Of a DNA stretch of 4,837 nt, positions 4,601 to 4,831 are shown piece by piece. Every line of letters starts with the position of its first letter. The first letter of the stretch is position 1. The notes under the pieces were generated by a model. The model was not told where the DNA came from. It made no database searches and saw only the letters and a list, made by a program, of their open reading frames with translations. The position numbers were made by a program, and so were the translations under genes. The DNA is taken from the sequence record KM389299.1; one strand, written 5' to 3'. The stretch comes from Escherichia phage CBA6.

Positions 4601-4657
4601 AATTATCACGAGATTTCCGTTCAACTATCCGGAAAGATTCCTTTGGCTCTATAGGGC

Positions 4658-4743
4658 TTGAGTGATGAAACTGACAGGAGAAGTGTGAAGGATTCTGGGT
4701 TGATCTCCAGAATGTTGGGGTTCGAATCCCCTAACTCGTGCCA
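4658..4743 (+). tRNA. tRNA-like gene with canonical T-arm, acceptor 3' strand and CCA; 5' half noncanonical; anticodon undetermined (possible unusual tRNA or pseudo-tRNA)
   Basis: T-arm GGGG-TTCGAAT-CCCC (4717-4731), acceptor 3' AACTCGT (4733-4739), G, CCA (4741-4743). The only strong internal hairpin (4692-4698 with 4707-4713) has an 8-nt loop GTTGATCT. The nearest 5' partner (4658-4664) gives 5 central pairs; a better 6 of 7 match lies at 4608-4614. Confidence 0.4.
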
Positions 4744-4749
4744 AATAAT

Positions 4750-4831
4750 GTGAGTGTGGCAGAGCGGTCGAATGCGCCTGACTGTAAATCAGGTATCCCA
4801 CGCGGTGGTTCAAATCCATCCACTCACACCA
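4750..4831 (+). tRNA. tRNA-Tyr (anticodon GTA)
   Basis: Acceptor GTGAGTG/CACTCAC perfect, anticodon stem CCTGA/TCAGG with loop CTGTAAA, T-arm GGTGG-TTCAAAT-CCATC, discriminator A, CCA. 10-nt variable region; 82 nt total. Confidence 0.8.

What the first reader, a model, noticed from the sequence alone, without database searches (positions are those of the whole stretch)
4608..4743. Noncanonical tRNA-like gene with an 8-nt loop hairpin between tRNA-Gln and tRNA-Tyr
The 3' half is a textbook tRNA (T-arm, 7-nt acceptor strand, G discriminator, CCA). The only plausible anticodon-position hairpin (4692-4713) has a 7-bp stem and an 8-nt loop GTTGATCT. The adjacent 5' acceptor candidate pairs only at 5 of 7 positions; a better partner lies 50 nt further upstream (4608-4614), implying an insertion. 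Possibilities are a tRNA with an expanded anticodon loop, a type-II tRNA I failed to fold, a tRNA with an insertion, or a pseudo-tRNA.
Basis: seen in the sequence. Interest (0 to 1): 0.5.

Follow-up and report, generated by a model that had tools for sequence, protein, structure and literature searches.

The report
Conserved tRNA-shaped phage RNA, not a tRNA
Between two ordinary tRNA genes this Salmonella-phage fragment carries a 136-base RNA gene that keeps the top half of a tRNA but has an oversized side arm and a fixed 8-base loop, so it is a conserved tRNA look-alike of unknown job rather than a working or dead tRNA.

Summary
Window 4608-4743 has a 7-nt 5' strand, a 77-nt insert, a 7-bp hairpin with the 8-nt loop GUUGAUCU, a T arm, a 3' acceptor strand, G and CCA. 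ARAGORN (default and intron mode) and the Rfam tRNA model (E up to 10) call nothing there. The window is an Ackermannviridae (Kuttervirus, Vi01-like) tRNA/ncRNA array.

The element is conserved in over 100 phage records of Salmonella, Escherichia, Shigella, Klebsiella and Serratia phages. There are two types, which share the acceptor, loop hairpin and T arm but differ in the arm at the D position (about 30 to 77 nt). In nine distinct sequences, 9 of 19 core pairs show compensatory change (0 of 500 shuffles reach this). The loop core UUGAUC is invariant, and two mismatches (6:67, 49:65) are conserved.

It is therefore a selected structured RNA. It is not a pseudogene, a class II tRNA or an intron-bearing tRNA, and almost certainly not a decoder. 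Its closest known analogue is T4 species 1 RNA (rnaC), which has the same architecture, no detectable homology and an unknown function.

Most likely it is cut out by tRNA-processing enzymes and acts as a tRNA mimic through its loop. That mechanism is inferred.

Side find: a widespread, unannotated tmRNA-like tag module at window ~1187-1492.

The parts
4601..4607 (+). A/U-rich spacer AAUUAUC between the CCA of tRNA-Gln and the element; presumed 5' leader removed by RNase P
   Evidence: Sequence. The same CCA-AAUUAUC junction precedes the element in IME250, and it also precedes rnaC in T4. Cleavage is inferred.
4608..4614 (+). 5' strand of the acceptor-like stem (ACGAGAU)
   Evidence: Pairs 6 of 7 with 4733-4739. 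Positions 1:72, 3:70 and 4:69 covary between types; 6:67 never pairs.
4615..4691 (+). Expanded domain at the D-arm position: a long imperfect hairpin. Its base (CC.UUCAAC / GUGUGAAGG) is shared with IME250 and its apical ~55 nt are specific to the Vi01 type.
   Evidence: MFE fold. IME250 has only ~30 nt here. Type B carries a different ~75-nt hairpin with its own covariation.
4692..4713 (+). Hairpin at the anticodon-arm position: 7-bp stem (5-6 bp conserved) and 8-nt loop GUUGAUCU (4699-4706) with the invariant core UUGAUC
   Evidence: Five of 7 stem pairs show changes on both sides, and the loop columns are invariant in 9 distinct sequences.
4714..4715 (+). Short linker, equivalent to the variable region (4 nt, AUGU, if the stem is counted as 5 bp)
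   Evidence: Sequence; rules out a class II long variable arm.
4716..4732 (+). T arm UGGGG-UUCGAAU-CCCCU with a canonical T loop (UUCRANN); the 49:65 pair is a conserved U.U mismatch
   Evidence: Pair 51:63 is G-C, A-U or G.U across homologues.
4733..4743 (+). 3' acceptor strand AACUCGU, discriminator G (A in type B), genome-encoded CCA
4525..4600 (+). Flanking canonical tRNA-Gln(UUG), shown for context
   Evidence: ARAGORN; Rfam tRNA 64.4 bits.
4750..4831 (+). Flanking canonical tRNA-Tyr(GUA), shown for context
   Evidence: ARAGORN; Rfam tRNA 62.2 bits.

Best explanation
Window 4608-4743 is a gene for a conserved, non-decoding, tRNA-shaped small RNA that belongs to the Ackermannviridae tRNA/ncRNA array.

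Shown:
- It folds as a four-way junction.
- It keeps the parts of a tRNA that processing enzymes read: the acceptor stem, a canonical T loop, a discriminator and an encoded CCA.
- The D arm is replaced by a long, length-variable hairpin domain.
- The anticodon loop is replaced by an 8-nt loop whose core UUGAUC never changes.

Inferred:
- It is co-transcribed with the neighbouring tRNAs.
- It is released by RNase P at 4607/4608 and by 3' trimming to the CCA, and it accumulates as a stable ~136-nt RNA, like T4 species 1 RNA.
- It then acts as a molecular mimic, not as an adaptor. Its invariant loop shows the sequence of positions 34-39 of the neighbouring tRNA-Gln(UUG) anticodon arm (UUGAUC) in a non-decodable frame.
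- That loop would engage a protein (or RNA) that normally reads a tRNA anticodon loop, for example as a decoy or competitor for a host tRNA-directed enzyme.

The partner and the benefit to the phage are unknown.
For: 1. The tRNA-like 3' signature is far beyond chance: 0.0055 expected per shuffled window.
2. It is not a tRNA by any detector. ARAGORN default and intron modes and Rfam tRNA, tRNA-Sec and tmRNA models at E<=10 all find nothing.
3. It is conserved across genera: 66 phage records match the window copy and 119 match the PM10-type copy. They span Kuttervirus, Agtrevirus and Taipeivirus, plus Klebsiella phage records without an assigned genus.
4. Core covariation in 9 distinct sequences: 87% of cells paired, 9 of 19 pairs changed on both sides, 0 of 500 shuffles as high, and all slid registers much lower.
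5. The full-length type B consensus fold has 5 more compensatory pairs, including inside the big D-domain hairpin.
6. The loop UUGAUC and the T-loop motif are invariant while the stems vary.
7. It sits between two tRNAs that carry their own processing signals, so it is not needed as punctuation there.
8. It appears as a cassette next to different neighbours in different phages: Gln-X-Tyr in Vi01, bigRNA-X-Tyr in PM10, Ile-X in MK-13, X-Ile in GOT, X-Tyr-Gln in RCIP0012.
9. T4 rnaC, a directly sequenced stable RNA, folds into the same architecture in the same kind of locus behind the same CCAAAUUAUC junction.
10. The neighbouring tRNA-Gln has UUUUGAU-C at positions 32-39, so UUGAUC equals its positions 34-39.
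Against: - There is no expression, end-mapping or aminoacylation data, and no transcriptome paper was found.
- MFE energies are not better than shuffles.
- The nine sequences are related and fall into only two deep types, so shuffle statistics overstate independence.
- In type B, covariation at 6:83 favours a 5-bp acceptor plus a GUC/GAC helix over a 7-bp tRNA-like acceptor. That may weaken recognition by RNase P.
- The element is patchy. It is absent from CBA120/SS9-type phages, whose matches stop at window 4417. It has a broken 3' acceptor in Dickeya Limestonevirus. So it is dispensable.
- The resemblance to the tRNA-Gln loop is a 5-6 nt match that could be coincidence, and no partner is known.
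- A GAUCAA complement lies upstream in type B and IME250 but is missing from the ORF-free RNA array upstream of the element in the window; its only copy there lies inside the 3717-4148 ORF.
Confidence: 0.6

Rival explanations
1. It is a functional decoding tRNA with an expanded 8-nt anticodon loop, acting either as a +1 frameshift/quadruplet decoder (UGAU) or as an odd Ser(UGA) or Gln(UUG) isoacceptor. Its D arm would simply carry an expansion.
For: - The acceptor, T arm, discriminator and encoded CCA are intact.
- The loop has U at the position expected for U33 if the anticodon is UGA.
- The loop is perfectly conserved.
- It lies inside a tRNA array.
Against: - No D stem or D loop, and no G18G19.
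- A 30-77-nt hairpin sits where the D arm should form the elbow.
- The position equivalent to 37 is U or C, not a purine.
- The discriminator switches G/A and the first four acceptor pairs differ between types. No aminoacyl-tRNA synthetase identity set is kept.
- The tRNA covariance model gives no hit even at E<=10.
- Relaxed ARAGORN assigns Gln(CUG), Phe(GAA) and Arg/Gly to the three homologues, which is inconsistent.
Confidence: 0.06
2. It is a decaying tRNA pseudogene (a former tRNA-Gln, for example) that picked up insertions and persists only by linkage.
For: - Distribution among related phages is patchy.
- The Dickeya-phage copies have lost the 3' acceptor.
- Two conserved mismatches lie in the stems.
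- The UUGAU loop resembles that of tRNA-Gln.
Against: - Compensatory substitutions occur in all three core helices and in the inserted domain.
- The loop and T-loop motifs stay invariant while the stems change.
- It is retained across several genera at 80-90% identity.
- The two mismatches are themselves conserved, which points to selection rather than decay.
Confidence: 0.08
3. It has no function in trans. It would be a cis-acting processing or stability module (an RNase P/RNase E entry site protecting or releasing neighbouring RNAs), or a recombination cassette spread with the homing endonucleases of the array.
For: - Every unit of the array ends in CCA plus an A/U-rich spacer.
- In type B the element follows a large structured RNA that lacks a T arm of its own.
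- HNH endonuclease genes lie in the array.
- The element changes neighbours between phages.
Against: - In the window it lies between two canonical tRNAs that need no helper.
- A pure processing signal would not need an invariant 8-nt loop or a conserved, covarying D-domain hairpin.
Confidence: 0.13
4. It is the tRNA-like partner (acceptor piece, or an SmpB/EF-Tu-binding module) of the tmRNA-like tag RNA encoded about 3 kb upstream in the same array.
For: - The window carries a tmRNA-like tag module with no tRNA-like domain of its own.
- In a Felixounavirus the module is followed by a tRNA-like unit with G3.U70, A73 and CCA.
- A TLD-only RNA of mycobacteriophage DS6A was reported; a similar molecule was shown to inhibit tmRNA, perhaps by titrating SmpB (PMC4131195).
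Against: - The element has no G3.U70; it has G3-C70, U3-A70 or U3.G70.
- It keeps an anticodon-like arm, which tmRNA tRNA-like domains lack.
- It is absent from many phages that carry the tag module, such as L004, L005 and L010.
- A better-placed candidate exists at 1516-1584.
Confidence: 0.04
5. It is a tRNA interrupted by an intron or a mobile insertion that is removed to give a normal tRNA.
For: The 5' and 3' acceptor strands are separated by extra sequence.
Against: - The extra sequence sits at the D-arm position, not in the anticodon loop.
- At 30-77 nt it is far too short for a group I intron, and Rfam finds no intron.
- ARAGORN's intron mode finds nothing.
- Removing the extra sequence leaves no D arm, and the loop is still 8 nt.
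Confidence: 0.02

Closest known systems
Bacteriophage T4 species 1 RNA (rnaC / RNA C), a stable RNA of the T4 tRNA cluster
   Same: - Encoded inside a phage tRNA array, directly after another unit that ends in CCA, with the same AAUUAUC spacer.
- Similar size: 139 nt against 136 nt.
- The predicted fold is a four-way junction: an acceptor-like stem with internal mismatches, a long hairpin at the D position, a hairpin with a non-anticodon loop at the anticodon position, and a canonical T arm CCGGG-UUCGAAU-CCCGG.
- Function unknown (PMC3014915; PMC12685909).
- Not represented in Rfam.
   Different: - No detectable homology beyond the T arm and the spacer.
- A covariance model of the Ackermannviridae core does not hit rnaC.
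- rnaC has no encoded CCA and its loop is 6 nt (GCGUCA), not UUGAUC.
- Expression of rnaC is established; expression of this element is not.
Canonical bacterial/phage tRNA (Rfam RF00005)
   Same: Acceptor stem, T stem-loop with the UUCRANN motif, discriminator, CCA, a ~4-nt variable region, and a position in a tRNA array.
   Different: No D arm. The loop is 8 nt without a purine at position 37. Mismatches at 6:67 and 49:65 are conserved. The Rfam tRNA model gives no hit even at E<=10 (its gathering score is 29 bits).
Frameshift-suppressor tRNAs with 8-nt anticodon loops (sufD/sufJ type; from general knowledge)
   Same: A stem at the anticodon position that closes an 8-nt loop.
   Different: Those suppressors are otherwise normal cloverleaf tRNAs with a defined synthetase identity and a purine at 37. 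This RNA lacks all of that.
tmRNA tRNA-like domains and TLD-only RNAs (e.g. mycobacteriophage DS6A; PMC4131195)
   Same: Phage-encoded partial tRNA mimics with an acceptor stem, T arm and CCA. A similar TLD-only molecule has been shown to inhibit tmRNA, perhaps by titrating SmpB.
   Different: No G3.U70. An anticodon-like arm is present. Rfam tmRNA models give no hit on 4601-4749.
Bacterial Y RNA-like YrlA (Rfam RF02553)
   Same: A non-coding RNA containing a tRNA-like module with a T arm; known in Salmonella and some phages (PMC4201824 abstract).
   Different: In YrlA the RNA ends form a Ro-binding helix, not an acceptor stem with CCA. There is no Rfam hit on the element.

Membership tests
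Canonical tRNA | Scores above threshold with the tRNA covariance model or ARAGORN | tested here: not met
   No call at 4601-4749 by ARAGORN (intron mode) or by Rfam at gathering score or E<=10. The 91-nt IME250 copy is also not hit at E<=1.
Canonical tRNA | 7-nt anticodon loop with U33 and a purine at 37 | tested here: not met
   The loop is 8 nt (N-UUGAUC-N) in all 9 distinct homologues. The first and last loop bases cannot pair in most of them (A..A, G..A).
Canonical tRNA | D arm (3-4 bp stem, loop with G18G19) | tested here: not met
   Replaced by a 30-77-nt hairpin domain.
Canonical tRNA | 7-bp acceptor stem, T arm with UUCRANN, discriminator, CCA | tested here: met
   Caveats: 6:67 and 49:65 never pair, and in type B positions 6-8 covary with another partner.
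Class II (long variable arm) tRNA | Variable arm of 10 nt or more between the anticodon and T stems | tested here: not met
   Only 2-4 nt lie between the hairpin and the T stem.
8-nt-loop frameshift suppressor tRNA | An otherwise canonical, chargeable tRNA body with one extra anticodon-loop nucleotide | tested here: not met
   The 8-nt loop is present, but the body is non-canonical and the acceptor and discriminator are not conserved. Charging cannot be tested here.
tRNA pseudogene | Substitutions accumulate without regard to pairing | tested here: not met
   9 of 19 core pairs carry compensatory change, 0 of 500 shuffles reach this, and there are 5 more in the full type B fold. Exception: the Limestonevirus copies look degenerate.
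Intron-containing tRNA | Insertion in the anticodon loop with a recognisable group I intron fold | tested here: not met
   The insertion lies at the D position. There is no intron family hit and ARAGORN -i finds nothing.
T4 species 1 RNA (rnaC)-like stable tRNA-cluster RNA | Located in a phage tRNA cluster; ~140-nt four-way junction with a canonical T arm and a non-anticodon loop | tested here: met
   Folds compared; locus context.
T4 species 1 RNA (rnaC)-like stable tRNA-cluster RNA | Sequence or profile homology to rnaC | tested here: not met
   The alignment shows only the T arm and the spacer in common. Model R1 does not hit L148 4909-5047.
T4 species 1 RNA (rnaC)-like stable tRNA-cluster RNA | Accumulates as a stable processed RNA in infected cells | not testable with these tools
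   No RNA data were available, and the literature searches found none.
tmRNA tRNA-like domain | G3.U70 alanine identity pair and no anticodon arm | tested here: not met
   The 3:70 pair is G-C, U-A or U.G, and an anticodon-position hairpin is present.
YrlA / Y RNA-like | Match to RF02553; ends form a Ro-binding helix | tested here: not met
   No hit on 4601-4749. The only weak YrlA hit in the window spans two true tRNAs at 3576-3649.

The most novel reading that the evidence does not exclude
The element would be a dedicated anticodon-loop mimic. It would be a phage-made, tRNA-processed decoy that presents the tRNA-Gln(UUG) loop sequence UUGAUC in an undecodable 8-nt loop. It would trap or mis-direct a host factor that reads that loop, such as an anticodon nuclease of a defence system, GlnRS, or a U34-modifying enzyme. 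It would be one member of a wider, unrecognised toolkit of tRNA-shaped RNAs in enterobacterial phage RNA arrays. The split tmRNA-like tag system seen in the same window would belong to that toolkit.
Probability: 0.12. Interest if true: 0.8.

Novelty: new variant of a known kind. Interest (0 to 1): 0.5.

Why it matters
Phage tRNA arrays are now read mainly as codon-usage aids or as replacements for tRNAs cut by host defences. This element shows that these arrays also hold selected RNAs that keep only the parts of a tRNA that processing enzymes read, plus an invariant non-anticodon loop. Annotation pipelines skip them, or cover them with spurious small 'hypothetical protein' ORFs.

T4 RNA C, the classic example of such an RNA, still has no assigned function (PMC3014915). 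A second, unrelated family with the same architecture, natural length variants and a sharply defined invariant loop gives a tractable handle: loop mutants, deletions and pull-downs. That applies to the general question of what such RNAs do, and to the specific possibility that they are tRNA decoys.

The same window also points to an unannotated, widely distributed tmRNA-like tag RNA in enterobacterial phages. That may matter more than the element itself.

Tried and rejected
- **ARAGORN modes.** Default, intron (-i), tmRNA and low-threshold runs on the element and its homologues. Only the low-threshold runs gave calls, and they named different anticodons in each homologue. Rejected as spurious.
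- **Rfam.** Gathering and E<=10 searches. No family covers the element, and T4 rnaC is not in Rfam either.
- **tRNA-Sec or 8/4-type cloverleaf.** Extending the acceptor to 8 bp fails (U.U), and no long variable arm exists.
- **Alternative nearer 5' strand.** No candidate with at least 6 of 7 pairs lies between 4615 and 4690.
- **Homology to T4 rnaC.** Rejected by alignment and by model R1.
- **Host origin or prophage copies.** No blastn match of either type in 5,426 E. coli genomes.
- **Loop-loop pairing with an upstream GAUCAA.** The motif is present in type B and IME250, but absent from the ORF-free RNA array upstream of the element in the window. It is not a general feature.
- **Viral-contig scans.** The 30-nt loop + T-arm pattern gave 5 loci, only 3 of them Ackermannviridae.
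- **Thermodynamic support.** z-scores are not significant.
- **Literature.** Ten searches found nothing on tRNA-like RNAs or tmRNA in Ackermannviridae. The T4 genome review PMC150520 is not held.
- **Finding a tRNA-like domain for the tag RNA.** I could not assign a convincing alanine-type tRNA-like domain to the tag module within the window.
Full report
**1. Where the window comes from.**
The 4,837-nt window is 92-98% identical over 70-80% of its length to Kuttervirus genomes (Ackermannviridae): Salmonella phages SS3/SS9, Vi01 and PM10, and Escherichia phage CBA120. It covers their tRNA region.

ARAGORN and Rfam agree on five canonical tRNAs, all on the + strand:
- Met 3220-3294
- Trp 3536-3611
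- Asn 3621-3696
- Gln(UUG) 4525-4600
- Tyr(GUA) 4750-4831

Nothing is called in the 149 nt between Gln and Tyr, even with Rfam at E<=10.

**2. The observation.**
- ACGAGAU at 4608-4614;
- hairpin 4692-4713 with a 7-bp stem and the loop GUUGAUCU;
- T arm UGGGG-UUCGAAU-CCCCU at 4716-4732;
- AACUCGU, then G, then CCA at 4733-4743.

The distant 5' strand pairs at 6 of 7 positions. No candidate nearer than 4608 reaches 6 of 7.

I defined a composite signature: a T arm with UUCRA, then 7 nt, one base and CCA, with an upstream complement. It occurs 8 times in the window against 0.0055 expected per dinucleotide-preserving shuffle. The eight are the five tRNAs, this element, and two more uncalled units at 1516-1584 and 1587-1712.

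The hairpin alone would arise by chance in about 5% of shuffles. The folding energy of the whole element is not better than shuffles. The case for a real structure therefore rests on comparison with other phages.

**3. Homologues.**
- The full 136-nt form is found at 99% identity only in Vi01, vB_SenM-AKM_ssTn and a record labelled 'Enterococcus phage Efm 3-10'.
- Serratia phage IME250 (Taipeivirus) has a 91-nt version. Its ends and loop are the same, but its D-position domain is only ~30 nt.
- A second type ('type B', 134-135 nt) shares the 3' 55 nt at ~81% identity but has a different 5' domain. It occurs in about 115 records: many Kutterviruses (PM10, S118, GOT), Agtrevirus MK-13 and Klebsiella phages.
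- The Dickeya Limestonevirus copies have lost the 3' acceptor strand.
- The element is absent from CBA120/SS9-type phages, whose matches stop at window 4417.
- It has no match in 5,426 E. coli genomes.
- Its neighbours differ between phages: Gln-X-Tyr, bigRNA-X-Tyr, Ile-X, X-Ile and X-Tyr-Gln. It behaves as a cassette, as the tRNA genes of these arrays do.

**4. Structure is under selection.**
I joined the 5' strand to the 3' 52 nt for nine distinct sequences and counted pairs on the cloverleaf core.
- 87% of cells are paired.
- 9 of 19 pairs have changes on both sides: 3 in the acceptor, 5 in the loop hairpin and 1 in the T stem.
- None of 500 shuffles reaches the observed value on any measure.
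- Sliding the partners by 1-3 columns drops pairing to 39-59% and leaves 0-2 compensatory pairs.
- Two positions never pair: 6:67 (A.A or G.A) and 49:65 (U.U).

The full-length type B alignment gives a consensus four-way junction with five further compensatory pairs, three of them inside the long D-position hairpin. In type B, positions 6-8 covary with a GAC just 5' of the loop hairpin (G-C to A-U). There the acceptor helix is probably 5 bp and continues into the D-domain helix.

The loop is N-UUGAUC-N in all nine sequences. The flanking bases (G..U, A..A, G..A) cannot generally pair, so 8 nt is the conserved state. T loops are UUCGAAU, UUCAAAU, UUCAACU or UUCAACC, all canonical.

The sequences are related and fall into only two deep types. 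The statistics therefore overstate independence, but the pattern of varying stems and fixed loops is the pattern of a functional RNA.

**5. What it is not.**
- **Not a class II tRNA.** The variable region is about 4 nt.
- **Not an intron-containing tRNA.** The extra sequence sits at the D position and is too short for a group I intron. No intron family matches, and ARAGORN's intron mode is silent.
- **Not a pseudogene.** See section 4.
- **Almost certainly not a decoder.**
  - It has no D arm and no G18G19.
  - A pyrimidine sits where position 37 would be.
  - The discriminator is G in type A and A in type B.
  - The first four acceptor pairs differ between types, so no synthetase identity set is preserved.
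  - Relaxed ARAGORN runs assign unrelated anticodons to the three homologues.
- **Not a tmRNA tRNA-like domain.** The 3:70 pair is G-C, U-A or U.G, and an anticodon-position arm is present.

**6. Closest known thing.**
T4 species 1 RNA (rnaC, 139 nt) lies in the T4 tRNA cluster right after rnaD, behind the same CCAAAUUAUC junction. It folds (z = -4.6) into the same architecture:
- an acceptor-like stem with internal mismatches;
- a ~65-nt hairpin at the D position;
- a 10-bp hairpin with a 6-nt loop at the anticodon position;
- the T arm CCGGG-UUCGAAU-CCCGG.

Its role is still unknown (PMC3014915; PMC12685909), and Rfam has no family for it. Apart from the T arm and spacer there is no sequence similarity. 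A covariance model of the Ackermannviridae core recovers all Ackermannviridae copies at 40-78 bits, including two degenerate Limestonevirus copies, but does not hit rnaC.

The element therefore works like, and looks like, T4 RNA C, but it is not demonstrably a member of the same family.

**7. Most likely mechanism.**
- **Shown:** a conserved tRNA-shaped fold with an intact acceptor, T arm and CCA; a variable D domain; an invariant 8-nt loop.
- **Inferred from established tRNA biology:** the acceptor/T-arm stack and the RCCA end make it a substrate for RNase P and 3' trimming. It should be excised from the array transcript and be stable.
- **Inferred, weaker:** the only sequence-invariant, exposed part outside the T loop is UUGAUC. 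This equals positions 34-39 of the adjacent phage tRNA-Gln (UUUUGAU-C). From memory, it also resembles the anticodon loop of the host tRNA-Gln(UUG). The RNA may act as a mimic or decoy for a factor that reads that loop.
- **Against the punctuation reading:** in the window the element sits between two self-sufficient tRNAs.
- **Against a general loop-loop partner:** the complementary GAUCAA found upstream in type B and IME250 is missing from the window's ORF-free array; its only copy lies inside the 3717-4148 ORF.

I put 0.6 on 'selected, processed, non-decoding tRNA-like RNA acting through its loop'. Most of that weight is on the first three words. The specific decoy reading gets about 0.12.

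**8. Context noticed on the way.**
The window's long ORF-free stretches (about 650-2770 and 4150-4520) are full of structured RNA.

(a) *Three more uncalled tRNA-shaped units*:
- 1067-1172: T arm GUGUGG-UUCGAUU-CCACAC, no CCA. Part of its SeKF_64 homologue is annotated 'tRNA-Ala'.
- 1516-1584: a 7-nt D region and a GAAA tetraloop in place of an anticodon loop, with CCA.
- 1587-1712: CCA.

(b) *A tmRNA-like tag module.*
- It follows a promoter-like site, TTATCA-16-TATAGT, at 1187-1214.
- At 1359-1394 it reads GCU AAU GAU AAC ACG UUC CUG GCA GUA GCU UAA UAG, which is ANDNTFLAVA**. From memory, the E. coli ssrA tag is ANDENYALAA.
- Only relaxed ARAGORN and sub-threshold Rfam tmRNA hits find it.
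- Vi01, IME250 and L009 differ from the window by three substitutions inside the frame, all synonymous. Other phages encode ANDNAYLAVA and ANDDVVLMAA.
- The module also occurs in Felixounavirus (ANDNVFLAVA), in ~46-57 kb phages of unassigned family (ANEEMYLAVA in Klebsiella phage YX3973), in a Schitoviridae phage, in SSU5 (ANEDTYLAVA) and in an E. coli lambdoid prophage between Q and the holin gene. It is found in 645 phage records and 753 of 5,426 E. coli genomes, and is never annotated.
- Helices covary across these families, including a pseudoknot stem: CCGA:UCGG, CCAG:CUGG and CCAA:UUGG.
- No tRNA-like domain lies inside the module.
- In Felixounavirus garuso a D-armless tRNA-like unit with G3.U70, A73 and CCA follows it. 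The positional counterpart here is 1516-1584, which has G3.A70.
- The 2014 tmRNA census lists only mycobacteriophages and Bacillus phage G among phages (PMC4131195).
- This lead is only partly followed up and deserves its own study.

(c) *Window 4317-4389* is a 14-bp helix with many compensatory changes relative to IME250. It encloses a conserved 45-nt core.

**9. Verdict.**
- It is a new variant of a known but unexplained kind of phage RNA.
- Interest for the finding itself is moderate, at 0.5. Interest would be higher if the decoy reading, or a link to the tmRNA-like system, were borne out.

Noticed in passing
window 1187-1492 (tag frame 1359-1394): Unannotated tmRNA-like tag module.
- A promoter-like site TTATCA-16-TATAGT precedes a structured RNA that encodes ANDNTFLAVA** behind CACAAAAAUAAUC.
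- Differences from Vi01 inside the frame are all synonymous. Other phages encode ANDNAYLAVA, ANDDVVLMAA, ANEEMYLAVA, ANDNVFLAVA and ANEDTYLAVA.
- A pseudoknot and helices covary across phage families.
- It is present in 645 phage records (Ackermannviridae, Felixounavirus, ~46-57 kb phages of unassigned family, Schitoviridae, SSU5) and in 753 of 5,426 E. coli genomes, mostly on plasmids.
- No tRNA-like domain lies inside the module.
- It is found only by relaxed ARAGORN and by sub-threshold Rfam tmRNA hits.

   Followed up: partly
window 1516-1584 and 1587-1712: Two more uncalled tRNA-shaped units that end in CCA.
- The 69-nt unit 1516-1584 has a 7-nt D region, a 7-bp hairpin capped by a GAAA tetraloop in place of an anticodon loop, the T loop UUCGAGU, a G3.A70 mismatch and C73. 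It lies just after the tag module, in the position that a G3.U70/A73/CCA unit occupies in Felixounavirus garuso (L151 865-947).
- The 126-nt unit 1587-1712 has a long D-position hairpin and the T loop UUCGACU.

   Followed up: partly
window 1067-1172 (short form 1104-1173): tRNA-like unit with acceptor GACGAGG/CCUCGUC, T arm GUGUGG-UUCGAUU-CCACAC and ACA in place of CCA, lying directly upstream of the tag-module promoter. Its homologue in phage SeKF_64 is annotated as a 67-nt 'tRNA-Ala' with U3.G70 and A73. Klebsiella-phage homologues have a fully different but still complementary acceptor, TGCGGTG/CACCGCA.
   Followed up: partly
window 4150-4520: ORF-free stretch between the 143-aa ORF and tRNA-Gln. 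It is conserved in IME250 and PM10-type phages. Window 4317-4389 forms a 14-bp helix with many compensatory changes, enclosing a conserved core GAUUAGCUGAGGAAGGAUGGCCGAUGUCCUCGAGCGUGGCCCAG. In type B and IME250 this large RNA ends ...CGGGUG(U/A)GAAGCCCGUCCA just before the tRNA-like element. No Rfam match.
   Followed up: partly
window 650-1060 and 1720-2770: About 2 kb without ORFs longer than 80 aa, containing long perfect inverted repeats. Examples are an 18-bp stem CAACUUUGAUGGCUCUAG/CUAGAGCCAUCAAAGUUG at about 2497-2590 and GCAAAUCGAAGUUCU...AGAACUUCGAUUUGC at about 1990-2122. These give only spurious miRNA-family hits.
   Followed up: no
window 2774-3190: The homing-endonuclease region annotated HNH in related phages appears interrupted here. 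An 87-aa ORF ends at 3037, and an HNH-like peptide (EGFEIDHVDENKYNCVLWNLQLL...) continues in another frame up to about 3190, just before tRNA-Met.
   Followed up: no
L003 2809-2897; L004 5883-5971; L005 6253-6341; compare L010 6019-6094: In PM10-type phages an 89-nt 'tRNA-OTHER' (ARAGORN 'tRNA-???') has the acceptor and T arm of the normal 76-nt tRNA-Ile(GAU) of another Kuttervirus, but carries about 13 extra nt in the anticodon region.
   Followed up: no
L150 2990-3260 (E. coli WP4-S18-ESBL-08 lambdoid prophage, between the Q antiterminator and the holin gene): A prophage copy of the tag module (ANEEMYLAVA). It is followed by a tRNA-like unit with an 11-bp terminal stem, CGGAAAGAGCA/UGCUCUUUCCG, and the T arm GGCGG-UUCGACU-CCGC.
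   Followed up: partly
L018 about 2020-2312 (IMGVR_UViG_3300017990_000012, an unrelated 125-kb phage contig): A tRNA-like gene with a normal-looking 5' part (ACGCGGG UA GCC AAAUGGUAAA GGC), then about 170 nt of extra sequence, then TTGATC, a T arm and a matching 3' acceptor. It may be an interrupted tRNA.
   Followed up: no
L002 702-915 (Serratia phage IME250): Rfam hit to the gammaproteobacterial sRNA STnc100 (RF02076), 48.7 bits against a gathering score of 47, in the phage's ORF-free RNA region.
   Followed up: no
phage record OR844942.1 'Enterococcus phage Efm 3-10' 60481-60635; MN871475.1 'Pseudomonas phage Pa-sanjiao': Records labelled as Enterococcus and Pseudomonas phages carry Kuttervirus sequence: OR844942.1 at 99% identity to the element, MN871475.1 at 81% like the PM10-type Kutterviruses. 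They are probably mislabelled or contaminated entries.
   Followed up: no
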